64,000 nucleotides of DNA from an uncultured Acidobacteriaceae bacterium. GTDB taxonomy: Bacteria; Acidobacteriota; Terriglobia; Acidiferrales; UBA7541. Each line of letters starts with the position of its first letter. Within the stretch, counting starts at the first letter, position 1. The translations under genes and the position numbers were made by a program. This document shows positions 43,920 through 61,944 of this stretch, in pieces. The notes beneath the pieces are model-generated. The model saw only the letters and a program-made list of their open reading frames with translations, was not told the origin of the DNA and ran no database searches. The DNA lies in the NCBI GenBank assembly GCA_964542805.1, contig CAZIWR010000001.1, forward strand, positions 2,600-66,599. Reading direction: 5' to 3'.

Positions 43920-44918
43920 TTATTTCGCCCACGCCATTCCGTCCGGCTCGGTGCCCGTCTCAAACGTGCTCGCCACTTTCCGCGCGGCAATATCAATCAC
44001 GCTGACTTTGTTGGCATTCGTATTGGCCACAAACGCGCGTTTCCCGTCCGGCGTCATTTGAATGCCCACGGGCACCACGCCGACTTCGATTTTCGCCAGC
44101 AGCGCGCGCGTTTTCGCGTTGAACACGCTCACCATGTTCGACTGCGCGTTGGAGACGAACACTTCTTTCCCATTCGGCGTGAATTTCACGCGGATGGGCA
44201 TTTTTCCGCCGCTGTCGAAGCTTTCCTTCACCGCATCGCTGGCCACGTCAATCACCGAAATCGTATTCGCCCCGCGGTTGGTCACCCACACTTCTTTCCC
44301 GTCCGGCGAAATCGCGATGCCTTCCGTCCCCGCCGCGGTCACGATGGTTTTCACCGCGTCCGTTGCGCGCGTAATTACCGACACGCTTCCCGATCGAATG
44401 TTGGAGACGTACAATTTCTTCTCATCGAGTGTGGGTACCACCATGTGACTTGTTTCCTGCTCCGTCTTCCACGACTTCAATATTTTTCCGTTCGATGTCT
44501 CGATTTCGAGCACGGCCTTGTTTTCTTCCACCGTCACCCACAATCTTTTTCCGTCGCGGCTCACCACAATGCCATGCGGCCGCTTGAACTCGCCTAGCGT
44601 CCACGTCGCTGCCACCTTGCGCGCTTTCAGGTCGAGCACCGTAATCGTTTCTCCCGGCTGCTGCCGCTGCTCGCCCGGACGAACCATTCCGTACGCGCCG
44701 TAATTCGATATATAGGCCATCCGCCCGTCCGCCGACACAGCCACTTCGTGCGGCCCTTTGCCCGTCGCCAGCCGCGCCGTCACTACAAACGTCGCCGGAT
44801 TCACCAGCGCCGCCTCGTGGTCCGACTTGTTCAGCACAATCAACGTTTGCGCACTCGCCGCTCCCGCCAGCGCAACGCTTACCGCCACCAGCGCCAAAAG
44901 CATTTTCATGACTCGCAT
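43920..44918 (-). CDS. Secreted YVTN-family beta-propeller repeat protein
   Basis: Signal peptide [20 protein letters not shown]. Repeated units of the form ...P.G.A.SPDGK..YV.N...N.VSVID. Confidence 0.75.
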
Positions 44919-45071: not shown

Positions 45072-45461
45072 ATGCAGCGTCAAAACATCTCCAGCGGCAC
45101 CAAGTGGGAACCCATCGTCGGCTATTCGCGCGCGGTGCGCGTCGGCCCGCACGTGCACGTGTCCGGCACCACCGCCACCGACGCCGGCGGCAAAATCGTC
45201 GGTGTGGGCGACGCCTACGCGCAGGCCATGCAGACGCTGGCCAACATTGAAGCGGCGCTCAACCGCGCCGGCGCCAAACTCGCCGACGTCGTGCGCACGC
45301 GCATCTACGTTACCAACATCACCAACTGGGAAGCCATCGCCAGCGCCCACGGCAAATATTTTGCGGAAATTCGCCCGGCGACGTCCCTAGTCGAAGTTTC
45401 CCGCCTCATTGCGCCGGAGATGCTTGTCGAAATCGAAGCCGACGCATACGTGGCCGAATGA
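45072..45461 (+). CDS. ridA: RidA/YjgF/UK114-family reactive-intermediate deaminase
   Basis: Track ORF 44748..45461 trimmed to the ATG at 45072. [16 protein letters not shown]...DVVRTRIYV...[11 protein letters not shown]...VEIEADA fits the family. 129 aa. Confidence 0.85.
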
Positions 45462-46477
45462 TGGACACCCCCGTGCGCACCTGCAACCTCTGTCTTCTCG
45501 GCTTCGGCAACGTTGGCCGCGCCTTCGCTCGTCTGCTGCTCGACAAATCCGCCGAACTTCGCGAGCGCTACGCCATTGAAGCGCGCATCACAGGTGTCGC
45601 CTCGCGACGCCTGGGCTGGCTGGCCAACCAGAGTGGTTTCGACGTAGAAAAACTTCTGGCCGGTAATTTCGCCGGCGGCACGAAGTGCGGTTTCATTCGT
45701 GAATGGCTCTCCCGCAGCCGCCCCGACGCGCTGTTTGAAATCTCCTCCGTCAACGCGCAGACCGGCCAGCCGGCCATCGACCACATCCGCGCCGCGCTCG
45801 AGCACGGCGCCCATGCCATCACCGCCAATAAAGGCGCCGTGGTCCACGGCTATGCGGCACTGCGCGACCTGGCCGCCGCGAAAGGGAAGCGTTTTCTTTT
45901 TGAAGCCTGCGTGATGGGCGGCACGCCAATTTTTTCTCTCTTCCGCGAGACGCTTCCCGCCACGCAGCTTCTGCGCTTCCGCGGCATCCTGAACTCCACC
46001 ACCAGTCTCATCCTTTCCGAAATGGAAAACGGAATCTCCTTCGACGACGCCGTGAAAAAAGCGCAAGCCCTCGGCATTGCCGAGACCGATCCCTCCGCCG
46101 ACCTCGACGGCTGGGACGCCGCCGTGAAAGTCCACGCCTTGGCCACCGTGCTGATGGACGCGCAGCTGCAGCTCGGCGACATCGCCCGCGAGAGCATTCG
46201 CGGCATTTCGCCGCAACAGGTGCTTGCCGCGCGCGCCGCCGGCAAAAAGATTCGCCTCGTCGCGCAAGCCGAAAAATCTCCCGCGGGAATTGTCGCCTCC
46301 GTGCGTCCCATGGAAATTCCCCTGGGCGATCCTCTCGCCGCCGTCAGCCCCACCGGCCTCATTCTGCATTTCGAACTCGACACGCTCCGTGACCTCGTCG
46401 TCGCCGCCGACCGCCAGGGCCCCGACACCACCGCCTATGGTTTGCTCGCCGATTTCCTTTCCGCCATCCGCACATAG
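45458..46477 (+). CDS. hom: Homoserine dehydrogenase
   Basis: ATGA overlap with rid[12 protein letters not shown] (NAD-binding), [17 protein letters not shown] and [17 protein letters not shown] are characteristic. Confidence 0.8.
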
Positions 46478-46568: not shown

Positions 46569-47372
46569 ATGTCCTCTCACGCCCAGCACGAATACTCCGA
46601 CGTCTTTGCCGAGTTCTACGACCACACGCCGCTCTATCGCACGCGTCCGGACATCGCTTTCTACGTCGAAGAAGCCCGCCGCGCCGGCTCCGTCCTCGAG
46701 CTGGGCTGCGGCAGCGGCCGCATTTTGATTCCGACGGCCGCGGCCGGCGTGCCCATCACCGGCCTCGACCTTTCCGATTCCATGCTCGCGCGCTGCCGCG
46801 AAAAGCTCGCCGCGCAGCCCGCCGAGGTGCGCGCTCGCGTGCGCCTCGTCCATGGCAGCATGACGGATTTCGATCTCCCGGAAAAATTCGCGCTCGTCAC
46901 CACGCCCTTCCGCGCGTTCCAACACCTCATTTCCATCGACGACCAGCTCGCCTGCCTGCGCTGCGTGCACCGCCATCTCGCCCCCGGCGGACGGCTGATC
47001 CTCGACATGTTTCAAGTGAACGCCGCGGGACTGGGCGATCCGGAATGGATGCGCGAGCGCGAAGACACGCCCGAAACCAAACTTCCCGACGGTCGCAGCT
47101 TCCGCCGCACCGCGCGCATTGCCGCCTTCCATCGCGCCGAGCAGGTCAACGACATCGAGTTCGCCGTGTACCTCACGCACCCCGACGGCCGCACCGAGCG
47201 CCACACGCAGACCTTTCCGATGCGCTATTTTTTCCCCAAGGAAGTCGAGCATCTGCTGGCCCGCTCCGGCTTCCGCGTGGTCACCGTCTACGGCGATTTC
47301 AACCGCTCGCCGCTGGCCAACGATTCGCCTGACATGCTCACCATTGCCGAGAAATCCGATGAGCGCGGATGA
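46569..47372 (+). CDS. Class I SAM-dependent methyltransferase (first gene of the RiPP-like cassette)
   Basis: Track ORF 46224..47372 trimmed to the ATG at 46569 (MSSHAQHEYSDVFAEFYD). VLELGCGSGR (motif I) and LAPGGRLILD. The 3' end overlaps the next gene by 14 nt. Confidence 0.8.
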   Translation: MSSHAQHEYSDVFAEFYDHTPLYRTRPDIAFYVEEARRAGSVLELGCGSGRILIPTAAAGVPITGLDLSDSMLARCREKLAAQPAEVRARVRLVHGSMTDFDLPEKFALVTTPFRAFQHLISIDDQLACLRCVHRHLAPGGRLILDMFQVNAAGLGDPEWMREREDTPETKLPDGRSFRRTARIAAFHRAEQVNDIEFAVYLTHPDGRTERHTQTFPMRYFFPKEVEHLLARSGFRVVTVYGDFNRSPLANDSPDMLTIAEKSDERG

Positions 47373-48477
47373 CGCGCGTTCTCTCCGGCAGTTGCTTGCG
47401 CTCTGCATCCGCCCCGCCGAGTGCGAGCTCCCTGCCGGCGACGCCGAATGGAACGCGCTTCTTCCGCTTGCTCTCGCTCACGGAGTCGGCCCGCTGCTCT
47501 TCGCCAATCTGCGCGAGCGCGTTCTCCCTGTCCAAGCCCGCGACCAGTTACGCCACGTCTACCTTTCCAATTCCTTCCGCAACGAAAAACTTCTCGCCGA
47601 GCAGCAGCGCATTCTCGACGCTTTCTCCAAAAAATCCCTTGCCGTCTGGCCGCTGAAGGGACCGCATCTTTCACAAACACTCTATGGCGACCCTGCCGCT
47701 CGTCAGGTCGCCGATTTGGATCTCCTCATCCGTCCTGAAATCCTCGCCGCTTGCGATGAGCTTCTCCATTCCTTCGGCTACACGCGCCAGGCGCAAGGCG
47801 ACATCGCCACCCTGCGCGACGCCGGCGAACTTATCTATCTTCGCTCCGCCCCGGACGTTGCTGGCTCGATGAACTATGCGGTGGATCTCCAGCAGCGCGT
47901 GCTGCCCTATGGCCGCCGCGACCCGCTCGCCGACCGCATACGTACGCACGGCCTCACGCCGGAAAATCTTCTTCTACTTCTTTGCGTCAACCAGATTGCT
48001 CACCGCTTCTCGCGCCTCAAATATCTCCTTGACGTCGCCGCCTGTCTTCGCGCGCTCCCCGCAAATTTCGATTGGAACGATTTCACCGCCACTGCGCAGC
48101 TTCTTCACTTCACTCCCGGCATCTACTGGAGCCTCTATTGGGCTCGCGACGCTGCCGGTGCGCCGGTGCCCGAGCTTGTGCTGGAAGAATTGCGCCCAGG
48201 CTGGTCTTCGCGCAGGCTGGCATCGCGCGTGCTGGGCGGCGATCCACTTGCCCTGCTCGCACGCGGCGCTTCGCTCGACGGCCCTGCAGGCGCTTGGGCC
48301 ATCCTAGCCTGCTCGCGTCCTGGCCTCCCGCGCCTCGGACAGTTCTGGCGGCTGCTGTTTCCTCCCCGCGCCACTCTTCGCCAGGAATTCTTCGACGCTC
48401 CCGGACGCTCCATCCTTTATCTCTATTTCGTCCGCCTCGCCCGCAAACTCCCCGCCGCACTGCGCCGCCATTCGTAG
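47359..48477 (+). CDS. PF14907-like 'uncharacterised nucleotidyltransferase' family protein
   Basis: Track ORF 47119..48477 trimmed to the ATG at 47359 (MSADDARSLRQLL). AVWPLKGPHLSQTLYGDPAARQVADLDLLIRPEILAACDELLHSFGY matches my memory of the NTP_transf_5 core (LKG...Y...R...D-D-L). Confidence 0.75.
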   Translation: MSADDARSLRQLLALCIRPAECELPAGDAEWNALLPLALAHGVGPLLFANLRERVLPVQARDQLRHVYLSNSFRNEKLLAEQQRILDAFSKKSLAVWPLKGPHLSQTLYGDPAARQVADLDLLIRPEILAACDELLHSFGYTRQAQGDIATLRDAGELIYLRSAPDVAGSMNYAVDLQQRVLPYGRRDPLADRIRTHGLTPENLLLLLCVNQIAHRFSRLKYLLDVAACLRALPANFDWNDFTATAQLLHFTPGIYWSLYWARDAAGAPVPELVLEELRPGWSSRRLASRVLGGDPLALLARGASLDGPAGAWAILACSRPGLPRLGQFWRLLFPPRATLRQEFFDAPGRSILYLYFVRLARKLPAALRRHS

Positions 48478-48601
48478 AGGCGAACGGAATACTCTCGCGG
48501 GTGACCATGCCCCCTTTCCCTATTCCGGAAATATACGGTTTTAAACCCTAAATTGTAGTTATTAGAGGGTGTAGATTTGGTACCCGGAACTCTGTCATTT
48601 A

Positions 48602-48631
48602 TTGACAGACATGAGCTTAGGCACGTAAAGT
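48602..48631 (+). promoter_or_regulatory. Sigma70-like promoter candidate (TTGACA-N18-TAAAGT) upstream of the kinase/PqqD/radical-SAM/peptide genes
   Basis: A perfect -35 hexamer at 48602-48607 and TAAAGT at 48626-48631, inside the only conspicuously AT-richer gap of this block (48478-48732). The -35 is embedded in the palindrome CTGTCA-TTTAT-TGACAG (48592-48608). Confidence 0.4.
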
Positions 48632-48732
48632 CGCATCACCCGAATTTTGGGTCGGCGCACAATCTTCCTCTCGCGGACCGTTTTGGTTCGCTGGCGCCTG
48701 CCCAGTCTGGGATTCGAGGAGGCCTTACCGGG

Positions 48733-49494
48733 GTGGCTCACGCCCCTCAGAGCACGCCGCTGTCTGTGTCCATCGGCCGCGTTCCCCTGACGCTATTCTT
48801 TCGTGAAGCCGCACTCCAGCAAAAGGCCGCCGCGCGCTATTCCGCCTTCCACAATTCTTCGGAAAACGGCTTCCCCGTTTACCTCGAACCGGATAAGAAT
48901 TTTCATCCCGGCACGGGTTTCGATTTTTCCCTCCACGGCGCCACGCTGCGCCTGGACTCCGCCGCCGCGCGCATCTCCGGCATTCAGTCCGACTACACGG
49001 TGGATTCGCTCCTGCGCGTGCTGCTCTCCATGATCTTGCTGCCGCATCGCGGCTTCCTGCTGCATGCGGCCACTATCGAGCGCCACGGCCGGGCCCACAT
49101 CTTCATGGGCCGCTCGGGCGCGGGCAAAAGCACCGTCGCCGGACTGGCGCCTGCCGGCACGCCACTTACTGACGAAATCTCTCTGCTGCGCGGCGACGCC
49201 GATGGCTGGCGCGCGCACGGCACGCCTTTTTGGGGCGAGTTTCGCGCCGGCGACCGCAATTGTCACATGCCTGTCGCGGGTATTTACGCGCTGATGCAGG
49301 CTGAAGAAAACCGCCTGGAAAAGATTGCGCCGCGCGAAGCCCTGCGCGGGCTGCTCGAAAATGTTCTGTTCTTCTCCGATGACCGTGCCTCGCGCGAACA
49401 GCTGTTGAGTATCGTCTCGGCCTGTGCCGAAGCGCTGCCCTTCTTTCGCCTTCACTTCAAGCGCGACTCCAGCTTCTGGGAGGTGCTCCCGTGA
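48733..49494 (+). CDS. HPr-kinase-like (HprK C-terminal domain-like) P-loop kinase
   Basis: FLLHAATIERHGRAHIFMGRSGAGKSTVAG is the HprK-like H-A-(A/S)...G.SG.GKS P-loop. I chose the GTG at 48733, preceded by GAGGAGG 10 nt upstream. The track start at 48577 (TTG) is an alternative. Confidence 0.7.
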   Translation: MAHAPQSTPLSVSIGRVPLTLFFREAALQQKAAARYSAFHNSSENGFPVYLEPDKNFHPGTGFDFSLHGATLRLDSAAARISGIQSDYTVDSLLRVLLSMILLPHRGFLLHAATIERHGRAHIFMGRSGAGKSTVAGLAPAGTPLTDEISLLRGDADGWRAHGTPFWGEFRAGDRNCHMPVAGIYALMQAEENRLEKIAPREALRGLLENVLFFSDDRASREQLLSIVSACAEALPFFRLHFKRDSSFWEVLP

Positions 49495-49811
49495 GCGCCC
49501 CGCAGCCGGCACTCGCCTCCGTTCGCCCGGCGCAGAATCCGCTGGCCGCCTGGCGTGAAATTGACGGCGTGGTGGTGGTGATTTCGCCCGAGGATAGCGT
49601 GCTGCACGAGCTCAACCCCACGGCCGGATTCATCTGGAAGCACTCCACCGGCGAGCGCACCGCCGAAGAAATCGCCCGGCTCCTCGTGGACGAATTCGAA
49701 GTAGACGCCGCCACGGCGCTGGCCGACACGCGCGAGCTCATCGCCGAGCTGGCTGCCAAAAAGCTTCTGCATACGGAAGCCGCTGCTGCCGCGGAGGTGT
49801 CCCGTGGCTAG
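49491..49811 (+). CDS. PqqD-family peptide chaperone (RiPP recognition element-like)
   Basis: 106 aa, GTGA overlap with the kinase. WREIDGVVVVISPEDSVLHELNPTAGFIWKHSTGERTAEEIARLLVDEFEVD is the classic PqqD/RRE pattern. Confidence 0.8.
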   Translation: MSAPQPALASVRPAQNPLAAWREIDGVVVVISPEDSVLHELNPTAGFIWKHSTGERTAEEIARLLVDEFEVDAATALADTRELIAELAAKKLLHTEAAAAAEVSRG

Positions 49812-50961
49812 CGCGGCCGTGATGGACCGTCTGGTGGCGCGTTCGCTGGCGCGCAACGCCCCGCTCAACGTGCATTTCGACGTCACCTACCGCTGCAACG
49901 AGCGCTGCGTGCACTGCTATCTAGACCATGCCGACCACGGCGAGATGACCACCGCGGAAATCAAGCGCGTGCTCGCCGAGCTGGCCGACGCCGGCACGCT
50001 CTTCCTGACCTTCTCCGGCGGCGAGATTTTTCTGCGCCCCGACTTCTTCGACCTGCTGGCCTACGCCCGCCAACTGCGCTTCGACGTCACCCTGAAGACC
50101 AACGCCCTGCTTATCACCGAGGAGCGCGCCGCGCAGCTCCGCCGCCTGGGCGTGCGCCGCATTCAGATCAGCTTGTACAGCGCGGACGCCGCCATCCACG
50201 ATTGCATCACCAAGGTGCCCGGCTCCTTCGCGCGCACTCTCGAGGCGCTGCGCTTCTGCCATGCGCAGGGACTGCTGGTCAAAATCTCCTGCCCGCTCAT
50301 GAAGCAGAACATCGCCGTCTGGCGCGAAGTGCAAGCGCTGGCTGATTCGCTCGGTGTCACTTTCATTATGGACCCCACCATCACGCCCATGATGGACGGC
50401 AATCGCAGCACGTTGGACATGCGCCTGGCTCCCAGCGAGTTGCTGCCCGTGATGCAGGCCCCGGTCTTTGACACGCCCGCGCCGGCGCCCGCCAAAGCCG
50501 GGGGCGCAGAAATGGCCGCGGCCTTCGACAACATCCCATGCAGCGCCGGGCACAACAGCCTCTACATTTCGCCCTACGGAGATATTTATCCCTGCGTGCA
50601 AATGCCGCTGCCCACCGGCAACCTGCGCGAAAAATCCTTCTCCGATATCTGGTACAGTTCGCCAAAAATGCTGCGCGTCCGCAACGTCAGGGAAAGCGAC
50701 CTGGCCACCTGCAATGACTGTGACATCCGCCATCACTGCCAGCGTTGCCCGGGCCTCGCCTTCATGGAAGACGGCGATCTCGGCGGTCCTTCCGAGCGCG
50801 CGTGTGAGTTGGCGGAAGCCGCCGCGCGCCTGGCCGGCGTTCGAAATCCCGTGAGCGGCCTGCGCGCCCTCGGCCGCCTGCACGCCACATCGAATTCCCA
50901 TCCCGCTCAGCTCGTTCACATCGCTGCGCTGAGCACTTCACAGGAGCGAGATGCCCTATGA
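49804..50961 (+). CDS. Radical SAM enzyme with full C-terminal SPASM domain (peptide-modifying maturase type)
   Basis: CNERCVHC (CxxxCxxC) and FSGGE. SPASM cysteines: CSAGHNSLYISPYGDIYPC (Gx4C), CNDCDIRHHCQRC, and a further C in ERAC. The GTG start is preceded by GGAGG at 49793-49797, and it overlaps the PqqD gene by 8 nt. Confidence 0.9.
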   Translation: MASAAVMDRLVARSLARNAPLNVHFDVTYRCNERCVHCYLDHADHGEMTTAEIKRVLAELADAGTLFLTFSGGEIFLRPDFFDLLAYARQLRFDVTLKTNALLITEERAAQLRRLGVRRIQISLYSADAAIHDCITKVPGSFARTLEALRFCHAQGLLVKISCPLMKQNIAVWREVQALADSLGVTFIMDPTITPMMDGNRSTLDMRLAPSELLPVMQAPVFDTPAPAPAKAGGAEMAAAFDNIPCSAGHNSLYISPYGDIYPCVQMPLPTGNLREKSFSDIWYSSPKMLRVRNVRESDLATCNDCDIRHHCQRCPGLAFMEDGDLGGPSERACELAEAAARLAGVRNPVSGLRALGRLHATSNSHPAQLVHIAALSTSQERDAL

Positions 50962-51125
50962 GCACAAACAAGCAGAACGCCACGACCGCGGCCGGCACTT
51001 CCCAGCGGAAGCCTTACGTCAAACCGCAGTGCCTCTCGGAGAAGATTTTTGAGACCACCGCGCTCGCCTGCGGCAAGCTGCCCGCCGGCGGCGGTCTGTG
51101 TGCCGGGGCGCCCAAAGCTTCTTAG
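50958..51125 (+). CDS. Candidate RiPP precursor peptide, 55 aa, unannotated (below the ORF-track size cutoff)
   Basis: ATG at 50958 overlaps the radical-SAM stop (ATGA). AGGAG lies at 50942-50946. My translation is MSTNKQNATTAAGTSQRKPYVKPQCLSEKIFETTALACGKLPAGGGLCAGAPKAS, with TAG at 51123-51125. By my count about 43 of 54 codons end in G/C, like the neighbouring genes. It has three Cys, a Gly-rich C-terminal part and a C-terminal Ser. Confidence 0.55.
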   Translation: MSTNKQNATTAAGTSQRKPYVKPQCLSEKIFETTALACGKLPAGGGLCAGAPKAS

Positions 51126-51215
51126 TAGGTGAGACGGGGGGCGTGCCGTCTGCTGTCAGGCAAACAGCGCCGGCCCGCAACCAGATTGCGTATGCACGAG
51201 TTTTGCGGAGGAGCC

Positions 51216-51797
51216 ATGAAACGACACATGAAAGTCCTGGGCGGCGCAATTCTTCTGACGGGCGCACTGCTGGCTCTGGCAGCGCCCGCCGTCGCGCAGA
51301 ATCGCCGGCCTGAGGGCCGCGGGCGCACGGATGCGGATGGCAAGAAGGTGAAGCCGCTCAAGCCGACGGTGAATGCTGTCACCGAGGTTTTCTTTTGTGA
51401 GAGCCCCACCACGGAGTGCCGCTCCACCAACACCACGTTCACCGTTGGCAAGCTCCGCGACATCTTTGTGTTTGTCACCTGGCCCAACGTCTCCGGAGAC
51501 TTGGTGCAGACCGTGGAGTTCTTCCTGCCCGACGGCAGCCTCTACGTCAAGAAGGCTACGCCGTTCCGCGCCAGTACGGCGCAGCCCCGCGCACGCGCCG
51601 TCCTAGGGGCCTCTCCTGTGGTCGACGCGTTCCTGACTTCCAGCCGCGGCACTCCCACGGTGATTACTCCGCTCGCTGTGGCCGGCACCTACATTACCCA
51701 GCGCAGCCTGCTGGGTACCTGGACGGTGCGTGTCCGGCTCGGCGACAAACCCGTACAGAGCGCGCAGTTCACGTTGAAAGCGCCCGACCAGAAGTAA
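51216..51797 (+). CDS. Secreted hypothetical protein (Ig-like/beta-sandwich character)
   Basis: Track ORF 51129..51797 trimmed to the ATG at 51216, preceded by GGAGGAG. Signal peptide MKRHMKVLGGAILLTGALLALAAPAVAQ. No recognisable catalytic motif. Confidence 0.55.
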   Translation: MKRHMKVLGGAILLTGALLALAAPAVAQNRRPEGRGRTDADGKKVKPLKPTVNAVTEVFFCESPTTECRSTNTTFTVGKLRDIFVFVTWPNVSGDLVQTVEFFLPDGSLYVKKATPFRASTAQPRARAVLGASPVVDAFLTSSRGTPTVITPLAVAGTYITQRSLLGTWTVRVRLGDKPVQSAQFTLKAPDQK

Positions 51798-51902
51798 CGC
51801 TTTCGCGACGCCCAAGCAGCTTACTGATTGGCCAACTCACCGCAATGCTGTAGAACAGATTGCGATGTGTTTTGAGGGTGGGCAGTTTCTAGGAGGGCTC
51901 GT

Positions 51903-54161
51903 ATGAGTGCGTTCCATCGAATTCGATGCATCGTATCCCTGGTGCTGGTGGCTTTGCTCGCGTTACCGGCGCCGCCGCTCCGCGCGGACGAGGTCACCAC
52001 TCTTACCGCTTCCGCGGATTCCTTTCTGCGACAAAATGCCGCCACCACCAATTCCGGAGCACTGACCACGTTCAACGTGTCATCCACCGCAGCAGGCACA
52101 GCAAGGGAACGCGGCATTGTGCAATTTGACCTGTCTTCCATCGTCTCCACCGCGGCCGTGAAAACCTCCTTCGTGAAACTCTTTTTATTGACTGCCCCCA
52201 ACCCCGCCCGTTCCAATAGAATCCATCGCGTGACCGCTGCCGGGGCCTGGGTTGAGAGCCAGGTGACTTGGAACAACCGAGCGACCGCAACTGCATGGAC
52301 AGCCGCCGGCGGCGATTTCAATGCGACCGCCGCCAATACCCAGAGCACTGGCACCACCAACAACGTCACCATCACCTACACTCTGCTCGGCGATGGCACC
52401 GTCGCCAACATCCCCCAGGGTTGGGTCGATGGCTCCCTTACCAATCGGGGACTCATGGTCCTCGACTCGAACGAGACCTTTCAGAACAAAACATCTACGT
52501 ACGCCTCCAAAGAAAACGCCACCGTCGCCAATCGCCCGAAGGTCGAGGTTCATTTTCTTCGCGACGTTACCGTCGGCTCGGTTACCCCGGGCGTTTCCGA
52601 AGTCACTCTGAATTTCACTTTTCCGGCCGGTGCCACGGGCGCCAACTATGATGGCGCCCTGATAGCCAGAAAGCCCGGCGCGACCGCTCCCACGTTCGCT
52701 CCCGTCGACGGCACTACCTACATCTTCGGCAGCCAGCCCGTCCTCGGCGAAACGATCGCCTCCAACGCCGCCAACTTCGCCGCCTCACCCGCCACCGTCA
52801 CCGTCACCGATGAGAACGGCTCTGACAATGTCATCACTCCGTCCACCCAATACAGCTACAAGATCTACACTCGCGACAACAACTTCATCACCGGCGCCGC
52901 GGTTGTTGCTCCTCCACATTTCTCTTTGGGCAGTGCCGCCACCTCCACGGTGACCACCTCCGCCTCAGGCGGCGCCAACAAGAATTGGAGCTACAAAACC
53001 TCCAGTACCATTCTCGCGCCCCCCGGTCTCGATCCCGGCAACAAAGTCGTAGCTGGCTCGGATGACTTCGATGTTCACAGCATGAATGCCGTAACCGGCG
53101 CGCGCAATTACCAGCCCTCCAGCCCCATCGGCACCACCGGCGACATGATTCAGACCCGTCCCGCAGTGATTTCCTCGGCGGACAGCACGCTTGCCGTTGA
53201 CGTCACCTATGTTGGCTCCAACGATGGTCGCGTCTATGCGTTCAATGCCAACACCGGGGTGCTGATTTGGGTCACTCCTGCGCCCGGTTCCCCCGGCGCT
53301 CTGGTTGCTGTGGGCGGCATCATTCAGGGCGGCATCGCCTTGCAGCTCAAGAGTTTTGCCAACGGCGGCTTCACTCCCACCACGGATCTGGTCTTCGTCG
53401 GCACCCGTGAGTTCTCCACCACTGCCAACAGCGTGTACGCCCTGAACGCGAATACTGGCGCGATCGTCTGGACCTTTACCCCTGGCAACATGGACCATGT
53501 CAATTCCACTCCTGTCGTGGACTACGCTAACAACACCATTTGGGTCTCCACTCTTTCCAACCTCGGTGGCCAGCCAAGCCTCTGGAAAATCGACAGCGTG
53601 ACCGGCGCGGGCATCTCCAATTTCAGCCTCGGCGACATCAGCGGCTCTCCCACGCTGAATTTCGACAACAAGGTCGTTTACGCCGTCACCGATTCAGGCG
53701 ACCTCGTTGCCGTGCGCAACGACATCGCCTCCTGCGTCAACACGTTCTCCTTTGGCGCCACCTCCGGCACCGGCTTCCCCATTCCCATCGGCACTGGACT
53801 TCTCCGCAACGAAAACATTTTCTTCACCACCACCACCGCCGGCGCCAGCACCATTCGCAAGGTCAACTTCATTTACAACCTCACCTGCGGGGGCGAAACC
53901 ATCGGCGCTGCCGGCGGTTACACCAACCCCTCCGGCATCGGCACCATCTCCGGCCCCATGTTTAATCCCTTTACCAGTTTCATTTACGTCGGCTCCTCCG
54001 ACGGCAACCTGTACAAGATTGACCCGGCCGCCGGCACCGTCCTCGCCAGCCGCACCGTCAATGCCGGCGTGGTCATCGGCGAGCCCAGCTTCGACGTCTA
54101 TCTCCTCAAGCTCTACGTCGGCGACACCCAGGGCCGCATCTATTCCTTCGACGTCTTCTAA
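51903..54161 (+). CDS. Large secreted protein: N-terminal DNRLRE/CBM-like domain, FN3-like segment, C-terminal PQQ-like (BamB-type) beta-propeller
   Basis: Signal peptide IVSLVLVALLALPAPPLRA. The N-terminal LRQNAATTNSGA...GIVQFDLSSI...VTWNNR pattern is like DNRLRE domains. C-terminal repeats GRVYAFNANTGVLIW, NSVYALNANTGAIVW, GDLVAV, GNLYKIDPAAGTV and GRIYSFD are PQQ-like propeller blades. Confidence 0.6.
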   Translation: MSAFHRIRCIVSLVLVALLALPAPPLRADEVTTLTASADSFLRQNAATTNSGALTTFNVSSTAAGTARERGIVQFDLSSIVSTAAVKTSFVKLFLLTAPNPARSNRIHRVTAAGAWVESQVTWNNRATATAWTAAGGDFNATAANTQSTGTTNNVTITYTLLGDGTVANIPQGWVDGSLTNRGLMVLDSNETFQNKTSTYASKENATVANRPKVEVHFLRDVTVGSVTPGVSEVTLNFTFPAGATGANYDGALIARKPGATAPTFAPVDGTTYIFGSQPVLGETIASNAANFAASPATVTVTDENGSDNVITPSTQYSYKIYTRDNNFITGAAVVAPPHFSLGSAATSTVTTSASGGANKNWSYKTSSTILAPPGLDPGNKVVAGSDDFDVHSMNAVTGARNYQPSSPIGTTGDMIQTRPAVISSADSTLAVDVTYVGSNDGRVYAFNANTGVLIWVTPAPGSPGALVAVGGIIQGGIALQLKSFANGGFTPTTDLVFVGTREFSTTANSVYALNANTGAIVWTFTPGNMDHVNSTPVVDYANNTIWVSTLSNLGGQPSLWKIDSVTGAGISNFSLGDISGSPTLNFDNKVVYAVTDSGDLVAVRNDIASCVNTFSFGATSGTGFPIPIGTGLLRNENIFFTTTTAGASTIRKVNFIYNLTCGGETIGAAGGYTNPSGIGTISGPMFNPFTSFIYVGSSDGNLYKIDPAAGTVLASRTVNAGVVIGEPSFDVYLLKLYVGDTQGRIYSFDVF

Positions 54162-54244
54162 TCCTCATCGTACTGGTCTTCGCCTTTTTGCTTCGTAGGA
54201 GCGCATGGTCCCGATTCAGAGGATGTGTGGATCGACGAATTTCG

Positions 54245-54276
54245 CTGTCACTCTGCAACTCTGTCACTCTGCAACT
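54245..54276. repeat. Perfect 16-bp tandem direct repeat (CTGTCACTCTGCAACT x2)
   Basis: Positions 54245-54260 and 54261-54276 are identical. It lies 56 nt upstream of the S24/S26 peptidase ATG. Confidence 0.85.
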
Positions 54277-54301
54277 TTCTATCCGCGCGCATCTATGCTT
54301 T

Positions 54302-54307
54302 TATAAT
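54302..54307 (+). promoter_or_regulatory. Perfect TATAAT hexamer 25 nt upstream of the S24/S26 peptidase start
   Basis: TATAAT at 54302-54307. No convincing -35 at 17±1 bp (CTATCC). It follows a perfect 16-bp tandem duplication. Confidence 0.3.
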
Positions 54308-54331
54308 GCTTCGACCATTCTGCACTCTCAC

Positions 54332-54826
54332 ATGAACACCATCTCCACGGCTGCTCCCCCCGAACTCGTTCCCGACGACGTCCGCCTCCGCGCCGAGATG
54401 CTCGCCGACGTCCTCCGTTCCGGCGGCACGGTCACGCTCCGCGTCTTCGGCGGCAGTATGTGGCCCTGGCTGCGCTCCGGTGACGCGATTTCCGTTCGCC
54501 GCGAAGACGCTGCGCGCATCCATCTTGGCGAAGTGGTGCTCTTTGCCCGCGAAGGCCGCCTCTTCGCCCACCGCGTAATCCGCAAACTCGCTCGCGATGG
54601 CCGCGCGGTACTCATCACCAAAGGCGATGCGCTGCCCCACGCCGATGCCCCGCTCGAATCCGCTGAACTGCTCGGCCGCATCTTCCGTGTCCGCCGCGCC
54701 GGACGCGAGTTCGCTCTCGATTCGCCGCAGCGCCGCGCGCTCGGCCGCGCCGCTGCGTTGCTCACCCACTCCAGCCGCTTCTGGTACCCTCTGGCCCGCG
54801 CCCTCAAACGCGCCTTCTCCCCGTAG
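54332..54826 (+). CDS. S24/S26-family (LexA/signal-peptidase-I-like) serine peptidase
   Basis: Track ORF 54188..54826 trimmed to the ATG at 54332. FGGSMWPWLRSGD (nucleophile Ser in the GxSM context) and LITKGDA (general-base Lys context). 164 aa. Confidence 0.65.
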   Translation: MNTISTAAPPELVPDDVRLRAEMLADVLRSGGTVTLRVFGGSMWPWLRSGDAISVRREDAARIHLGEVVLFAREGRLFAHRVIRKLARDGRAVLITKGDALPHADAPLESAELLGRIFRVRRAGREFALDSPQRRALGRAAALLTHSSRFWYPLARALKRAFSP

Positions 54827-54934
54827 CGTCCACCCCTCGGCGGCTCCTGTGTGTTTGAGCTGTGTCCTCTGCGCCTTCTTTGCGTCCTCTGTGTTAGTGT
54901 TTGGCCTGTTCCCATCGTCTTTTGCGAGGCTTCC

Positions 54935-55555
54935 ATGCACTTCATTTCTGCCATCTGCAATCTGAAAATCTCCATTCTGCGAATCATCGTCGTTTGCATT
55001 TTGTTGTTTGCTGTACCGTCATCGCGCGCGCAGGCCCCTCCTCCCGTCCGAGTCCTCTTCGAAACCCAGCTCGGCGCCATCACCATCGAAGTGGACGCCG
55101 CCCGCGCGCCCGTCACCGCGGCCAATTTCCTGCGCTACGTCGACGCCGGTTTCTACAACGGCGGCGTCTTTCATCGCACCGTGCGCCTTAGCAACCAGCC
55201 CGACAAGAAAGTGAAGATCGAAGTCATTCAGGCCGGCGCCGACCCCGCCCGCGCACGCAGCGGATTTCCGCCCATCCCTCTCGAGCGCACCAACAAAACA
55301 GGACTCGCCCACACCGACGGCTGCGTCTCCATGGCCCGCGACACTCCCGACACCGCCACCTCCGATTTTTTCATTTGCATCGGCGACCAGCCCGCGCTCG
55401 ATTTCGGCGGCGCTCGCAACCCCGATGGACAGGGCTTCGCCGCCTTCGGCCGTGTGATCAAGGGCATGGACGTCGTTCGCAAAATTCAGGCCGCCCCTGC
55501 CGACGCGCAGAAGCTTACCCCTCCCGTCAAAATCCTCTCCGCCAAGCGCCTGTAG
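54935..55555 (+). CDS. Secreted cyclophilin-type peptidyl-prolyl cis-trans isomerase
   Basis: Trimmed to the ATG at 54935. Signal-like ISILRIIVVCILLFAVPSSRAQA. AANFLRYVDAGFYNGGVFHR, VSMAR and DFFICIG...FGRV are cyclophilin motifs. Confidence 0.85.
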   Translation: MHFISAICNLKISILRIIVVCILLFAVPSSRAQAPPPVRVLFETQLGAITIEVDAARAPVTAANFLRYVDAGFYNGGVFHRTVRLSNQPDKKVKIEVIQAGADPARARSGFPPIPLERTNKTGLAHTDGCVSMARDTPDTATSDFFICIGDQPALDFGGARNPDGQGFAAFGRVIKGMDVVRKIQAAPADAQKLTPPVKILSAKRL

Positions 55556-55677
55556 CGGCCACCTCTAAGTGGGCATCTTGCTTGCTTCGAACTTCGTCTT
55601 TATTCCGCTCCCCAGCCGCGCCGCCCCCTCGTGCTACCATTCGAACGAATTGATTTGCACGGGTGCCGGACACACGC

Positions 55678-57075: not shown

Positions 57076-57086
57076 CTTTTGTCCTC

Positions 57087-57120
57087 CGATTTTCGTTTTT
57101 CGATTTTTCGGTTTTCGTCT
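57087..57120. repeat. T-rich TTTCG-type low-complexity intergenic repeat
   Basis: CCGATTTTCGTTTTTCGATTTTTCGGTTTTCGTCT. Related tracts occur at 21449-21485, ~27880-27905, ~35840-35870, 39243-39262 and 59787-59825 (ATTTCGAGTCTCGAATTTCGCGTTTCG). Confidence 0.65.
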
Positions 57121-57134
57121 TTCTATCTCTGCTC

Positions 57135-57148
57135 ATCTGTGGTTTCAT
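57135..57148. repeat. 14-mer ATCTGTGGTTTCAT (copy 2, upstream of uxs)
   Basis: Identical to 45039-45052. It lies 30 nt upstream of the proposed uxs TTG start. Confidence 0.7.
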
Positions 57149-57177
57149 ATCCCTTCTTCTGTTCGGGAGACTCAACT

Positions 57178-58131
<954 letters not shown>

Positions 58132-58207
58132 CCCGCCTCTTTCGCGCCTTTTGCGCCCCGACCGTTTTTGTCGGGGAGAGGCGGGGCCTCGTCGCATAAA
58201 GCAAAAA

Positions 58208-58227: not shown

Positions 58228-58270
58228 CCCTGATGCCTGCTCCCTGGTCCCTGATCCCTTTTCTAGCTGC

Positions 58271-61923: not shown

Positions 61924-61944
61924 CGCTTCAGCGCCTTCAACCTC

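What the first reader, a model, noticed from the sequence alone, without database searches (positions are those of the whole stretch)
46569..51125. Radical-SAM/SPASM + PqqD + HprK-like kinase + PF14907 nucleotidyltransferase + methyltransferase cassette: a RiPP-like system that fits no characterised class
**What the sequence shows.** Six tightly packed plus-strand genes. Start and stop overlaps occur at 47359/47372, 49491/49494, 49804/49811 and 50958/50961. The genes are a SAM methyltransferase, an NTP_transf_5-like nucleotidyltransferase, an HprK-like P-loop kinase, a PqqD/RRE protein, a radical-SAM enzyme with a complete SPASM domain, and a 55-aa Cys-containing ORF.

**Established knowledge.** PqqD plus rSAM/SPASM is the standard recognition-plus-maturase pair for peptide crosslinking (sactipeptides, ranthipeptides, PQQ, mycofactocin). 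HprK-like kinases and nucleotidyltransferases are, as far as I know, characterised only as tailoring enzymes of lasso peptides (the paeninodin and pseudomycoidin work).

**Why it stands out.** The window contains no lasso cyclase (Asn-synthetase-like) and no transglutaminase-like leader protease. The kinase/NTase pair is therefore combined with a radical-SAM maturase instead. I also recall an NCBIfam/TIGRFAM 'HPr-rel-A system' (HprK-related kinase, PqqD-like protein, nucleotidyltransferase) of unknown function noted near exopolysaccharide loci. This cassette lies between two polysaccharide loci and adds a candidate substrate and a maturase, which could help explain that orphan system.
Basis: partly seen in the sequence, partly recalled or inferred. 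Interest (0 to 1): 0.88.

Follow-up and report, generated by a model that had tools for sequence, protein, structure and literature searches.

The report
Uncharacterised peptide-maturation gene cluster of Acidobacteria
This is a real, widely conserved gene cluster that most likely turns a 55-residue peptide into a cross-linked product phosphorylated at its C-terminus, by an enzyme combination not described for any known peptide natural product.

Summary
The cassette is larger than reported: nine plus-strand genes, 46569-54826.

**Extra genes.** Two secreted proteins and a soluble Sec11/S24-type serine peptidase, the probable leader peptidase.

**Conservation.** In 72 Acidobacteria-type sources:
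- PqqD: 71
- HprK/PEPCK-fold kinase (Pfam ScmC family): 68
- peptidase: 65
- small ORF: 70
- nucleotidyltransferase: 36

The same set recurs in Chthonomonadales and Anaerolineae in a different gene order.

**Precursor family.**
- 876 clusters at 50% identity.
- It has a lasso-like Y-x-K-P leader motif and an A-L-x-C-G-K motif.
- A second Cys lies at a fixed distance from the first.
- 70 of 70 locus peptides, and 147 of 150 database representatives, end in Ser.

**Best reading.** PqqD presents the peptide to the radical-SAM/SPASM enzyme, which cross-links at the two Cys. PqqD also presents it to the kinase, which phosphorylates the terminal Ser as in paeninodin. The nucleotidyltransferase and an N-methyltransferase are optional tailoring steps. 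No chemistry has been shown.

**Classification.** It is not a lasso, SynChlorMet or HPr-rel-A member by score thresholds. No paper describing it was found. I rate it a new variant of a known kind (RiPP).

The parts
46569..47372 (+). SAM-dependent methyltransferase, an accessory tailoring enzyme and probably an amine N-methyltransferase
   Evidence: - Pfam Methyltransf_25 at 6.5e-20.
- The best NCBIfam hit is the daptide-type RiPP methyltransferase, 129.7 bits against a cut-off of 175.
- The nearest solved structures are 9sot (1e-46), then the N-methyltransferases MtfA, CcbJ and DesVI/TylM1.
- It is present in the window, L001, L080 and L081 only.
47359..48477 (+). NTP_transf_5 (PF14907) nucleotidyltransferase-fold protein, an accessory tailoring enzyme
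   Evidence: - Pfam match at 9.5e-41.
- K100, G101 and the D119-x-D121 motif are invariant in 39 homologs.
- It is present in 36 of 72 Acidobacteria-type loci and 4 of 5 distant cassettes.
- No solved relative was found by sequence.
48733..49494 (+). ScmC-family P-loop protein with a PEPCK/HPr-kinase fold; predicted peptide kinase (the ORF extends upstream to TTG 48577)
   Evidence: - NCBIfam gives ScmC at 1e-11, HprK_rel_A at 1e-6 and HprK_rel_B at 6e-3, all below cut-off.
- Precomputed Pfam of 120 homologs PF27840.
- The AlphaFold model has pLDDT 90.
- Foldseek matches PEPCK at 6e-9 and HPr kinase/phosphorylase at 5e-4.
- H111, the G-x-S-G-A-G-K132-T/S loop, D147 and E148 are conserved.
- GTG 48733 lies behind GAGGAGG.
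49491..49811 (+). Stand-alone PqqD-type peptide-recognition protein (RRE)
   Evidence: - Pfam PqqD at 5.5e-17.
- The best NCBIfam hit is the lasso-peptide PqqD chaperone, 35 bits against a cut-off of 70.
- It is present in 71 of 72 loci.
49804..50961 (+). Radical-SAM enzyme with a complete SPASM domain; no fused recognition domain
   Evidence: - Pfam Radical_SAM plus SPASM.
- CxxxCxxC sits near the N-terminus, and seven SPASM Cys are conserved.
- The nearest solved structures are SkfB (1e-11), PqqE, SuiB and CteB.
- All NCBIfam hits are far below cut-off.
50958..51125 (+). Precursor peptide, 55 aa: MSTNKQNATTAAGTSQRKPYVKPQCLSEKIFETTALACGKLPAGGGLCAGAPKAS
   Evidence: - AGGAG lies 11 nt upstream.
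- Homologs are present in 70 of 72 loci, either after the radical-SAM gene or before the peptidase gene.
- Y20, P23, E32, T33, A35, L36, A37, C38, G39, K40, C48 and S55 are invariant in alignment A4.
- The family has 876 clusters.
- 147 of 150 representatives end in Ser.
- There is no Pfam or NCBIfam hit.
51192..51797 (+). Secreted protein of about 200 aa, function unknown (the ORF begins at GTG 51129)
   Evidence: - It has an N-terminal signal-like hydrophobic segment.
- It is conserved after the precursor gene in L001, L080 and L081, and more weakly in L082.
- No family hit was found.
51903..54161 (+). Secreted 752-aa protein with a DNRLRE/CBM96 domain and a PQQ/BamB-like beta-propeller
   Evidence: - Pfam and NCBIfam domain hits.
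- It has a signal peptide.
- Homologs or remote beta-propeller relatives lie in 56 of 72 loci.
- There are one or two copies in L080-L082.
54332..54826 (+). Soluble Sec11/SipW-like (S24/S26 clan) serine peptidase; probable leader peptidase (the ORF begins at TTG 54188)
   Evidence: - Pfam Peptidase_S24, 30.6 bits against a cut-off of 23.3.
- NCBIfam archaeal-type signal peptidase I, 51.6 against 51.85.
- The family profile hits human SEC11C/A at 4e-10 and LexA at 2e-4.
- G40, S42, M43, P45, H80, R81 and D99 are invariant.
- 66 of 67 homologs have no membrane segment.
- It is present in 65 of 72 loci and in 5 of 5 distant cassettes.

Best explanation
This is a nine-gene biosynthetic cluster for a ribosomally made, post-translationally modified peptide.

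**Shown by sequence and comparison**
- The cluster encodes a 55-aa precursor, a stand-alone PqqD recognition protein and a radical-SAM/SPASM enzyme.
- It also encodes a P-loop protein with a PEPCK/HPr-kinase fold and a soluble Sec11-like serine peptidase.
- These five travel together across phyla and gene orders.
- A PF14907 nucleotidyltransferase is present in half of the loci. A methyltransferase is present in one subclade.

**Inferred pathway**
1. PqqD binds the conserved K-K-P-Y-x-K-P-x-F leader motif, a close copy of the lasso Y-x-x-P-x-L motif.
2. The radical-SAM/SPASM enzyme, which has no recognition domain of its own, makes one or two intramolecular cross-links. These most likely are thioethers from the two invariant cysteines (A-L-x-C-G-K, and a second Cys nine residues on).
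3. The kinase uses the same PqqD-bound precursor and phosphorylates the hydroxyl of the invariant C-terminal serine, as the lasso kinases PadeK, ThcoK and PsmK do.
4. Where present, the nucleotidyltransferase-fold enzyme extends that phosphate with a sugar or nucleotide, as PsmN does.
5. Where present, the methyltransferase N-methylates an amine.
6. The soluble Sec11-like Ser/His peptidase removes the leader, cutting after a small residue (T-x-A|L or L-x-C|G).

The fate and function of the product, and the role of the co-located secreted beta-propeller protein, are unknown.
For: **Gene identities.**

**Co-occurrence in 72 Acidobacteria-type sources.**
- PqqD: 71
- kinase: 68
- peptidase: 65
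- precursor: 70
- nucleotidyltransferase: 36

**Independence from gene order.** The same set is found in Chthonomonadales and Anaerolineae. In L071 the order is precursor-PqqD-rSAM-kinase-peptidase-NTase. The precursor is placed differently in the window clade and in the major clade. So the linkage does not depend on gene order.

**Precursor features.**
- Y-x-K-P, A-L-x-C-G-K, a second Cys and a terminal Ser are seen in 70 of 70 locus peptides.
- Of 150 representatives from 876 clusters, 147 end in Ser, 125 have C-x9-C and 140 have seven residues after Cys2.
- Chthonomonadales precursors differ in sequence but keep Y-x-K/R-P, two Cys and the terminal Ser.

**Kinase.**
- PEPCK/HprK fold.
- Conserved His, P-loop Lys and Asp-Glu. 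Their spacing is similar to the His-Lys-Asp-Asp tetrad reported as essential in lasso kinases (PMC9266682).

**Precedents from the literature.**
- Lasso kinases phosphorylate the C-terminal Ser of the linear precursor, and that Ser is conserved in kinase-containing clusters. PsmN adds hexose to the phospho-Ser (PMC9266682).
- BsfK works together with the B1 recognition protein, and phosphorylation and leader removal are affected by the Y-x-x-P-x-L motif (PMC10368454).

**Other components.**
- The PqqD best hits are lasso chaperones.
- The radical-SAM enzyme has a full SPASM domain and no N-terminal recognition domain. Its nearest solved relatives are peptide maturases.
- The peptidase has an invariant Ser/His/Asp set aligned to SEC11 and lacks a membrane anchor.
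Against: **No chemistry is shown.** Neither the type of cross-link nor its partner residues can be read from sequence.

**Kinase.**
- It falls below every curated NCBIfam cut-off.
- At sequence level it matches HPr kinase/phosphorylase only at E 0.06.
- Its best structural match is PEPCK, not HprK.

**The kinase-to-Ser link is not independently tested.** Loci without a nearby kinase (L046, L062, L068, L083, L084) still encode Ser-terminated peptides. This link therefore rests on analogy.

**Other gaps.**
- No exporter or immunity gene is conserved.
- The persistent beta-propeller neighbour is unexplained.
- The peptide HMM search is partly circular for the features it was built from.
Confidence: 0.6

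Rival explanations
1. The peptide is not a free natural product. It is a cross-linked small subunit or peptide-derived cofactor that works with the co-located secreted beta-propeller protein. The analogy is the gamma subunit of quinohemoprotein amine dehydrogenase (radical-SAM/SPASM QhpD, leader protease QhpE, beta-propeller subunit), or PQQ and mycofactocin.
For: - A large secreted beta-propeller protein lies in 56 of 72 Acidobacteria-type loci, next to the precursor gene in both gene orders.
- The modified positions and ring spacings are fixed.
- Usually there is one locus per genome, and no exporter or immunity gene is conserved.
- Mycofactocin and PQQ maturases are among the better radical-SAM hits.
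- The QhpD/QhpE comparison rests on my own knowledge of that system.
Against: - The beta-propeller is absent from the Chthonomonadales and Anaerolineae cassettes examined and from the HR16 loci.
- Its domains (DNRLRE, CBM96) point to polysaccharide binding.
- Residues between the conserved positions are hypervariable, and some loci carry two precursors. This is more typical of secreted RiPPs.
- No redox-cofactor-forming residues (Trp, Tyr or Glu pairs) are conserved in the core.
Confidence: 0.12
2. Phosphorylation is not the final decoration. It is an activation step. The phospho-Ser (or nucleotidylyl-Ser) at the C-terminus is eliminated to dehydroalanine. The second Cys then adds to it and forms a lanthionine-type ring. 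The radical-SAM enzyme makes a different link at the first Cys.
For: - The spacing Cys2-x6-Ser is fixed in 140 of 150 peptides. In Chthonomonadales it is also fixed, at x10. This suggests ring closure between these two positions.
- Kinase-then-elimination is the established logic of class III/IV lanthipeptide synthetases (PMC8341899 reviews these classes; the application here is my inference).
Against: - No lyase or cyclase homolog is in the conserved set.
- The kinase fold is unrelated to lanthipeptide kinase domains.
- In the only characterised relatives of this kinase/NTase pair, the phosphate is kept and extended (PMC9266682).
Confidence: 0.1
3. The ScmC-family protein is not a peptide kinase. 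It could be an ATP-binding scaffold or chaperone for the radical-SAM step. It could instead phosphorylate a non-peptide molecule that the nucleotidyltransferase then uses. The terminal Ser would then be conserved for the radical-SAM enzyme or the peptidase.
For: - The best structural match is PEPCK, a small-molecule kinase.
- Scores against the HprK-related models are low.
- Ser-terminated peptides exist at loci without a nearby kinase.
- The function of the SynChlorMet ScmC protein is unknown (my recollection of the TIGRFAMs description).
Against: - The conserved His, P-loop Lys and Asp-Glu have a spacing similar to the HprK/lasso-kinase catalytic tetrad (PMC9266682).
- The protein is tightly coupled to PqqD: overlapping genes in the window, and co-occurrence in 68 of 72 loci.
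- The exact precedent exists of a PqqD-dependent kinase acting on a C-terminal Ser (PMC9266682, PMC10368454).
Confidence: 0.15
4. This is not a peptide system at all. The radical-SAM enzyme acts on a non-peptide substrate or on a protein (heme or sulfatase type), and the small ORF is spurious.
For: The top NCBIfam hits by score are NirJ2 and AhbD, which are heme enzymes.
Against: - Those hits are 145 and 143 bits against cut-offs of 500.
- PqqD is adjacent in 71 of 72 loci, and the small ORF is conserved at protein level in 70 of 72 loci and in 876 clusters.
- The nearest solved relatives are peptide maturases.
- No sulfatase or heme genes are in the conserved set.
Confidence: 0.02

Closest known systems
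Phosphorylated lasso peptides (paeninodin; pseudomycoidin; the bsf cluster of Bradymonas)
   Same: - A stand-alone PqqD-type recognition protein.
- A leader with Y-x-x-P-x-(L/F).
- An HPr-kinase-related P-loop kinase.
- A PF14907-type nucleotidyltransferase.
- A precursor that ends in a conserved Ser, which is the phosphorylation site in paeninodin-type peptides (PMC9266682, PMC10368454).
   Different: - No Asn-synthetase-like cyclase and no transglutaminase-like B2 protease.
- No conserved acidic ring-closing residue in the core.
- Instead there are a radical-SAM/SPASM enzyme, two invariant Cys and a Sec11-like serine peptidase.
SynChlorMet (SCM) cassette: NCBIfam TIGR04248-TIGR04251 and Pfam PF27840 ScmC
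   Same: - A ScmC-family P-loop protein, a PqqD homolog and radical-SAM/SPASM in one cassette.
- ScmC is the best NCBIfam hit of the kinase, and PF27840 covers all 120 listed homologs.
- The SCM cassette is uncharacterised, and as I recall its description, no precursor is known for it.
   Different: - All four SCM models score far below cut-off: 44.8 against 125, 28.9 against 100, 103.5 against 400 and 71.3 against 400.
- There is one radical-SAM gene here, not two.
- Here the precursor, a dedicated peptidase and often a nucleotidyltransferase are identified.
- True SCM loci were not examined.
Sactipeptides and ranthipeptides (radical-SAM/SPASM thioether peptides)
   Same: - A SPASM enzyme with seven auxiliary-cluster Cys.
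- Recognition through a PqqD-like domain.
- A Cys-containing precursor.
- SkfB is the nearest solved relative, and StsB, AlbA and PapB are among the hits.
   Different: - Scores are far below family cut-offs (StsB 108 against 625, AlbA 88 against 850).
- There are only two Cys, with no recognisable Cys-x-n-acceptor repeats.
- The kinase, nucleotidyltransferase and Sec11-like peptidase are not part of those classes.
Quinohemoprotein amine dehydrogenase gamma-subunit maturation (QhpC/QhpD/QhpE); comparison from my own knowledge
   Same: A small Cys-containing peptide, a radical-SAM/SPASM cross-linking enzyme, a dedicated serine leader protease and a beta-propeller partner protein are encoded together.
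   Different: - There is no heme subunit, no ABC exporter and no flavoprotein.
- The peptidase family is different (Sec11-like, not subtilisin-like).
- A kinase and a PqqD are present here.
- No homology test against Qhp proteins was run.

Membership tests
Lasso peptide pathway | Asn-synthetase-like lasso cyclase (C protein) | tested here: not met
   There is no Asn_synthase family among the Pfam calls for genes of L080, L081 and L082, in the cluster genes, or in the ten largest window ORFs.
Lasso peptide pathway | Transglutaminase-like B2 leader protease | tested here: not met
   No such family appears. The conserved peptidase is S24/S26-type.
Lasso peptide pathway | PqqD-like B1 recognition protein and a Y-x-x-P-x-L leader | tested here: met
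   - PqqD at 5.5e-17; its best NCBIfam hits are lasso chaperones, but below cut-off.
- The leader has Y-x-K-P-x-(F/V/C/L) in 70 of 70 peptides.
Lasso peptide pathway | Core with an N-terminal Gly/Ala/Ser/Cys and an Asp/Glu at position 7-9 for the macrolactam | tested here: not met
   No conserved acidic residue follows the leader motif in the alignments.
SynChlorMet cassette (NCBIfam) | ScmC, ScmD, ScmE and ScmF above the curated cut-offs | tested here: not met
   - ScmC: 44.8 against 125.
- ScmD: 28.9 against 100.
- ScmE: 103.5 against 400.
- ScmF: 71.3 against 400.
SynChlorMet cassette (NCBIfam) | Two radical-SAM/SPASM genes in the cassette | tested here: not met
   There is a single radical-SAM gene in the window and in L019, L071 and L080-L082.
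Pfam PF27840 (ScmC family) | Match to the Pfam model | tested here: met
   The precomputed PF27840 hit is present on all 120 listed homologs, including one 98% identical to the window protein, and on the kinase genes of L080-L082. The model is absent from the Pfam copy I could scan.
HPr-rel-A system (TIGR04352 HprK-related kinase A) | Kinase above the curated cut-off of 200 bits | tested here: not met
   28.0 bits, E 1e-6, over about 50 residues around the P-loop.
HPr kinase/phosphorylase superfamily (PEPCK-like fold) | Fold, and a catalytic His / P-loop Lys / Asp-Asp set | tested here: inconclusive
   - Fold: Foldseek gives PEPCK at 6e-9 (TM 0.5-0.56) and HprK/P at 5e-4.
- Sequence profile against HprK/P: E 0.06.
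- His111, Lys132, Asp147 and Glu148 are conserved with HprK-like spacing. Residue-by-residue equivalence was inferred from spacing and not aligned.
Sactipeptide / ranthipeptide maturases | Radical-SAM motif plus a full seven-Cys SPASM domain, acting on a Cys-containing precursor | tested here: met
   Conserved are C25, C29 and C32 plus C240, C258, C297, C300, C306, C309 and C328. The precursor has two invariant Cys.
Sactipeptide / ranthipeptide maturases | Thioether (S to C-alpha, C-beta or C-gamma) cross-link in the product; membership of a curated maturase family | not testable with these tools
   This needs mass spectrometry and NMR. Curated models all fall below cut-off: StsB 108 against 625, AlbA 88 against 850, PapB 52 against 340 for the L071 enzyme.
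Mycofactocin / PQQ systems | MftC or PqqE above cut-off, and a precursor with the cognate C-terminal motif | tested here: not met
   MftC scores 127.6 against 265 and PqqE 105 against 381. The precursor ends in x-K-x-S, with no Val-Tyr or Glu/Tyr pair.
Anaerobic sulfatase-maturing enzymes | anSME-type enzyme next to a sulfatase | tested here: not met
   No anSME appears among the best 25 NCBIfam hits shown or among the PDB hits. No sulfatase is in the conserved neighbourhood.
Signal peptidase I, archaeal/ER type (S26B; Sec11/SipW) | Ser/His(/Asp) catalytic set and a match to the family model | tested here: inconclusive
   - TIGR02228 scores 51.6 against a cut-off of 51.85.
- The profile hits SEC11C/A at 4e-10, with S-M, H-R and G-D aligned.
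- S42, H80 and D99 are invariant.
- Pfam Peptidase_S24 is above cut-off.
Signal peptidase I, archaeal/ER type (S26B; Sec11/SipW) | Membrane anchor placing the active site outside the cytoplasm | tested here: not met
   66 of 67 homologs have no 19-residue segment with Kyte-Doolittle mean of 1.6 or more. The window protein's maximum is 0.75.

The most novel reading that the evidence does not exclude
The cassette makes a new peptide-derived prosthetic subunit or cofactor, not a free secondary metabolite. A doubly cross-linked, C-terminally phospho-(glycosyl/nucleotidyl)ated peptide would be handed to the co-conserved secreted beta-propeller/carbohydrate-binding protein of Acidobacteria. This would be comparable in kind to the QHNDH gamma subunit, PQQ or mycofactocin, with a phosphoserine handle that none of those have.
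Probability: 0.12. Interest if true: 0.9.

Novelty: new variant of a known kind. Interest (0 to 1): 0.64.

Why it matters
**Scale.** Acidobacteria are among the most abundant soil bacteria, and their peptide chemistry is almost unknown. This cassette is common in them:
- 876 precursor clusters at 50% identity.
- 856 kinase homologs at E 0.001 or better.
- More than 120 close radical-SAM homologs.

Everything in it is annotated as hypothetical or generic.

**What is now defined.**
- The substrate.
- Its recognition motif.
- Three invariant candidate modification sites: two Cys and the terminal Ser.
- A dedicated soluble Sec11-type leader peptidase.

**Consequences.**
- A four- or five-gene co-expression experiment becomes directly feasible.
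- If the model holds, lasso-type phosphorylation and glycosylation tailoring is a portable module that has been re-used with radical-SAM chemistry.
- ER-type signal-peptidase homologs would be added to the list of RiPP leader peptidases.
- The orphan ScmC/SynChlorMet family would get a first functional hypothesis.

Tried and rejected
**Readings rejected**
- *Heme or sulfatase radical-SAM enzyme.* The top NCBIfam hits, NirJ2 and AhbD, are 145 and 143 bits against cut-offs of 500. Context and PDB neighbours point to peptide maturases.
- *Lasso pathway.* No cyclase or B2 protease is found.
- *HPr-rel-A membership.* 28 bits against 200.
- *SynChlorMet membership.* All scores are below cut-off and there is only one radical-SAM gene.
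- *Anti-phage defence system.* PADLOC gives only generic radical-SAM and methyltransferase hits.

**Idea downgraded**
- I first thought the peptidase was LexA/UmuD-like and cut Cys|Gly in the invariant C-G-K. The family profile sits closer to SEC11, with an invariant His where LexA has Lys. Both T-x-A|L and L-x-C|G remain possible.

**Tests that gave nothing**
- I tested L076 (Syntrophaceae) as a possible true SCM cassette for comparison. It is only another PqqD plus radical-SAM pair.
- I tried to test the kinase-to-Ser link through kinase-less loci. Those peptides still end in Ser, and some are second loci in genomes that have a complete one, so the result is uninformative.
- I looked for a relation between nucleotidyltransferase presence and peptide C-terminal residues. 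None was apparent.
- A tblastn search of the kinase against plasmids gave no match.
- Promoter and terminator scans were not above shuffled expectation.

I repeated it with database hits.
- Look-up of the contig encoding the identical peptide P0241 found nothing on record.
- PMC4919450, the paeninodin paper, is not held.

**Literature**
- Eight searches found no description of this architecture.

Full report
**1. Observation**

The six plus-strand ORFs and their overlaps are as reported:
- The methyltransferase stop and the nucleotidyltransferase start overlap by 14 nt (47359/47372).
- Kinase and PqqD share GTGA (49491/49494).
- PqqD and the radical-SAM gene overlap by 8 nt (49804/49811).
- The radical-SAM gene and the small ORF share ATGA (50958/50961).

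Domain scans confirm a class I methyltransferase, PF14907 NTP_transf_5 (9.5e-41), PqqD (5.5e-17), and Radical_SAM plus SPASM. In 80 homologs the CxxxCxxC motif and all seven SPASM cysteines are conserved. The radical-SAM motif starts about 30 residues from the N-terminus, so the enzyme has no fused recognition domain. Homologs of the third gene's product are 245-276 aa. GTG 48733 sits 10 nt behind GAGGAGG, so the gene probably starts there and not at TTG 48577. The small ORF has AGGAG 11 nt upstream.

**2. True extent and conservation**

A scan of one genome per species with the radical-SAM protein returned 79 loci. Most are Acidobacteriota (Terriglobia). A few are Chthonomonadales, Anaerolineae and deltaproteobacteria.

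tblastn with the window proteins showed that kinase, PqqD and the radical-SAM gene always travel together, and that a homolog of the small ORF is nearly always present.

In most loci a 159-aa gene lies between the peptide gene and the kinase gene. It is a Peptidase_S24-type protein.

Three annotated contigs of the window's clade show the same order: [methyltransferase]-nucleotidyltransferase-ScmC-PqqD-rSAM-peptide-(200-aa protein)-(one or two large CBM96/beta-propeller proteins)-peptidase.

Counts over 72 Acidobacteria-type sources:

| Component | Present in |
|---|---|
| PqqD | 71 |
| kinase | 68 |
| peptidase | 65 |
| peptide | 70 |
| nucleotidyltransferase | 36 |
| beta-propeller | 56 |
| methyltransferase | 2 (plus L080 and L081) |

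Most of the misses are truncated loci or second, partial loci in genomes that also have a full one.

Five distant cassettes have PqqD, kinase and peptidase in a different order. In Chthonomonas L071 the order is peptide-PqqD-rSAM-kinase-peptidase-nucleotidyltransferase. Linkage that survives rearrangement and phylum boundaries is strong evidence of a functional unit.

**3. The precursor**

Seventy peptides from 67 loci align without difficulty. The consensus is K-K-P-Y-x-K-P-x-F-R-x-E-x-V-F-E/V-T-x-A-L-x-C-G-K-x7-C-x6-S, and all 70 end in Ser.

A profile of the window peptide and 20 database homologs was searched against 1.84 billion representatives. It found 876 clusters at E 0.001 or better and 183 at 1e-10 or better. 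Among the best 150:
- 147 end in Ser, 2 in Thr and 1 in Ala.
- 147 have C-G-K.
- 125 have nine residues between the cysteines.
- 140 have seven residues after the second Cys.

This search is partly circular, because the profile encodes these features. The Chthonomonadales peptides are a fairer test. They are too diverged to be found by BLAST, for example ...AYAKPSAMFVELKPEERLMSCNKTPSDIACDDPTGLGFDAS. They still keep Y-x-K/R-P, two Cys with Lys two residues after the first, and a terminal Ser.

The N-terminal 15-40 residues and the residues between the conserved positions are hypervariable. Neither Pfam nor NCBIfam has a model for the peptide, and all database copies are named hypothetical.

**4. 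The enzymes**

*Kinase.*
- NCBIfam relates it weakly to ScmC (1e-11), HprK-related kinase A (1e-6) and B (6e-3), all far below cut-off.
- A newer Pfam family, PF27840 ScmC, covers all 120 listed homologs.
- An AlphaFold model built on 32 sequences is confident: pLDDT 90, pTM 0.87.
- Foldseek finds ATP-dependent PEP carboxykinases (E 6e-9, TM 0.5-0.56) and then HPr kinase/phosphorylases (5e-4). As I recall, these two families are regarded as sharing one fold superfamily.
- His111, G-x-S-G-A-G-Lys132-Thr/Ser and Asp147-Glu148 are conserved.
- The His-to-Lys distance (21 residues) and the position of the acidic pair are consistent with the profile alignment to L. casei HprK/P. They also fit the His-Lys-Asp-Asp tetrad that a review reports as essential in lasso-peptide kinases (PMC9266682). 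I inferred this equivalence from spacing and did not align the residues.

*Peptidase.*
- The family profile hits human SEC11C/A at 4e-10, with the S-M, H-R and G-D motifs aligned. It hits LexA at 2e-4.
- NCBIfam's archaeal-type signal peptidase I model scores 51.6 against a cut-off of 51.85.
- Ser42, His80 and Asp99 are invariant.
- Unlike real signal peptidases, 66 of 67 homologs lack any membrane segment. This fits a cytoplasmic, dedicated leader peptidase.
- Signal-peptidase specificity (small residues at -1 and -3; established knowledge) would fit T-x-A|L or L-x-C|G in the invariant T-x-A-L-x-C-G-K stretch.

*Radical-SAM enzyme.* Its nearest solved relatives are SkfB (1e-11), PqqE, SuiB and CteB.

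*Nucleotidyltransferase.* It has the G-x...D-x-D signature invariant. It has no solved relative by sequence.

*Methyltransferase.* It is nearest to the daptide RiPP methyltransferase model (129.7 against 175) and to amine N-methyltransferases of known structure.

**5. How it most likely works**

*Shown:* the parts list, its conservation, and the conserved positions of the substrate.

*Inferred:*
- The leader motif Y-x-K-P-x-F is a near copy of the lasso Y-x-x-P-x-L motif, and the PqqD protein's best matches are lasso chaperones. PqqD therefore probably binds this motif.
- The radical-SAM enzyme lacks its own recognition domain, so it must rely on PqqD. It most plausibly cross-links at the two invariant cysteines.
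- In lasso systems, HPr-kinase homologs phosphorylate the C-terminal Ser of the linear precursor. That Ser is conserved wherever the kinase is present, and PsmN adds hexose to the phosphate (PMC9266682). BsfK works together with the B1 recognition protein, and phosphorylation and leader removal are affected by the Y-x-x-P-x-L motif (PMC10368454).
- All four elements are present here: recognition protein, motif, kinase family and terminal Ser. Ser55 is therefore the predicted phosphorylation site.
- The nucleotidyltransferase (half of the loci) and the methyltransferase (one subclade) are optional decorations.
- The Sec11-like peptidase removes the leader.

I put 0.6 on this whole chain, and about 0.9 on the narrower claim that this is a peptide-maturation cassette acting on the small ORF.

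**6. Rivals and open points**

- *Secreted beta-propeller protein.* It is co-located in 56 of 72 Acidobacterial loci, in both gene orders, and no exporter is conserved. This allows a reading in which the peptide becomes a subunit or cofactor of that protein (0.12). Against this reading, the propeller is missing from the distant cassettes and its extra domains look carbohydrate-binding.
- *Fixed Cys2-to-Ser spacing.* It allows a phosphorylate-eliminate-cyclise route to a lanthionine-like ring (0.10). No lyase is present.
- *Kinase identity.* The ScmC protein may not be a peptide kinase at all (0.15). Loci without a kinase still have Ser-terminated peptides, so the coupling rests on analogy.
- *Non-peptide reading.* It is effectively excluded (0.02).

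**7. Comparison with known systems**

- It works like a hybrid of phosphorylated lasso peptides (recognition and tailoring module) and sacti/ranthipeptides (radical-SAM/SPASM on Cys). It is a member of neither. The lasso cyclase and B2 protease are absent, and all curated maturase models are far below cut-off.
- Its nearest curated relative is the uncharacterised SynChlorMet cassette. It fails that cassette's score thresholds and has one radical-SAM gene instead of two.
- PADLOC gives no defence-system assignment.
- Eight full-text searches found no paper that combines an HPr-kinase homolog with a SPASM enzyme, and none that names SynChlorMet. The library lacks most subscription journals, so prior description cannot be fully excluded.

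**8. Verdict**

I extend it with the correct boundaries, the leader peptidase, the precursor family and its invariant terminal Ser. I correct it on the nearest curated relative. It is a new variant of a known kind (a RiPP pathway with a new enzyme combination and a new precursor family). It is abundant in a poorly explored phylum and is directly testable.

Noticed in passing
L083 9222-10177 and L084 9222-10177: In Armatimonadota 'bacterium HR16'-type contigs, a clear homolog of the precursor (58 aa, ending ...ALACGKCTSGPFSQFACSTIERNS) sits with only the S24-like peptidase and PqqD. No radical-SAM or ScmC-like gene lies within 10 kb. Either the other enzymes are encoded elsewhere or a minimal module exists.
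   Followed up: partly
L046 and L067 (both on contig CAWDNJ010000005.1, 33 kb apart); also L062 and L068: Some genomes carry a second, partial locus. It has PqqD, the radical-SAM gene and a precursor but no kinase or peptidase, and in L046 the precursor is on the opposite strand. This suggests that the kinase and peptidase are shared in trans.
   Followed up: partly
L041 2173-2415 and 5013-5384; L056 2873-3259 and 5186-5404; L059 4615-4920 and 5057-5308: Three loci encode two precursor peptides each. The two differ mainly in the variable residues between the conserved positions.
   Followed up: no
L069 5057-5341: The precursor ORF reads on past the usual C-terminal Ser after ...ALTCGKT. This is a frameshift, a pseudogene or an assembly error.
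   Followed up: no
window 54851-55555 and 55663-57075: A signal-bearing cyclophilin (Pro_isomerase, 1.4e-33) and a Ser/Thr protein kinase (Pkinase, 1.8e-44) directly follow the peptidase. L081 has a Pro_isomerase-containing protein and a Pkinase in the same position, but L080 does not. Whether they belong to the system is unclear.
   Followed up: partly
window 6513-41106 and 57079-63945: The flanks are mainly polysaccharide genes: two UDP-glucose dehydrogenases, a MurJ-like flippase, a glycosyltransferase-methyltransferase fusion (16265-18295), a GNVR/tyrosine-kinase co-polymerase, a Bac_transf priming transferase, a UDP-GlcNAc 2-epimerase, a UDP-glucuronate decarboxylase-like epimerase and a heparinase II/III-like protein. 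An unrelated homocysteine S-methyltransferase/MTHFR gene also lies within the first span.
   Followed up: partly
window 51030-51032 (Cys25 of the precursor): Precursors of the window's closest relatives have a third cysteine inside the leader motif (K-P-Q-C). Other clades have Phe or Val at that position.
   Followed up: no
window 48478-48732: The 255-nt gap between the nucleotidyltransferase and kinase genes holds the only sigma-70-like match in the cluster (TTGACA-18-TAAAGT at 48602-48631). One match is no more than shuffles give.
   Followed up: no
window 43920-44918 (-), 45075-45461, 45458-46477: Upstream neighbours are a YncE/lactonase-type beta-propeller, a RidA-family protein and a homoserine-dehydrogenase-like protein. 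They are syntenic only in the closest relatives (L001, L080, partly L081), so they are probably unrelated to the cassette.
   Followed up: partly
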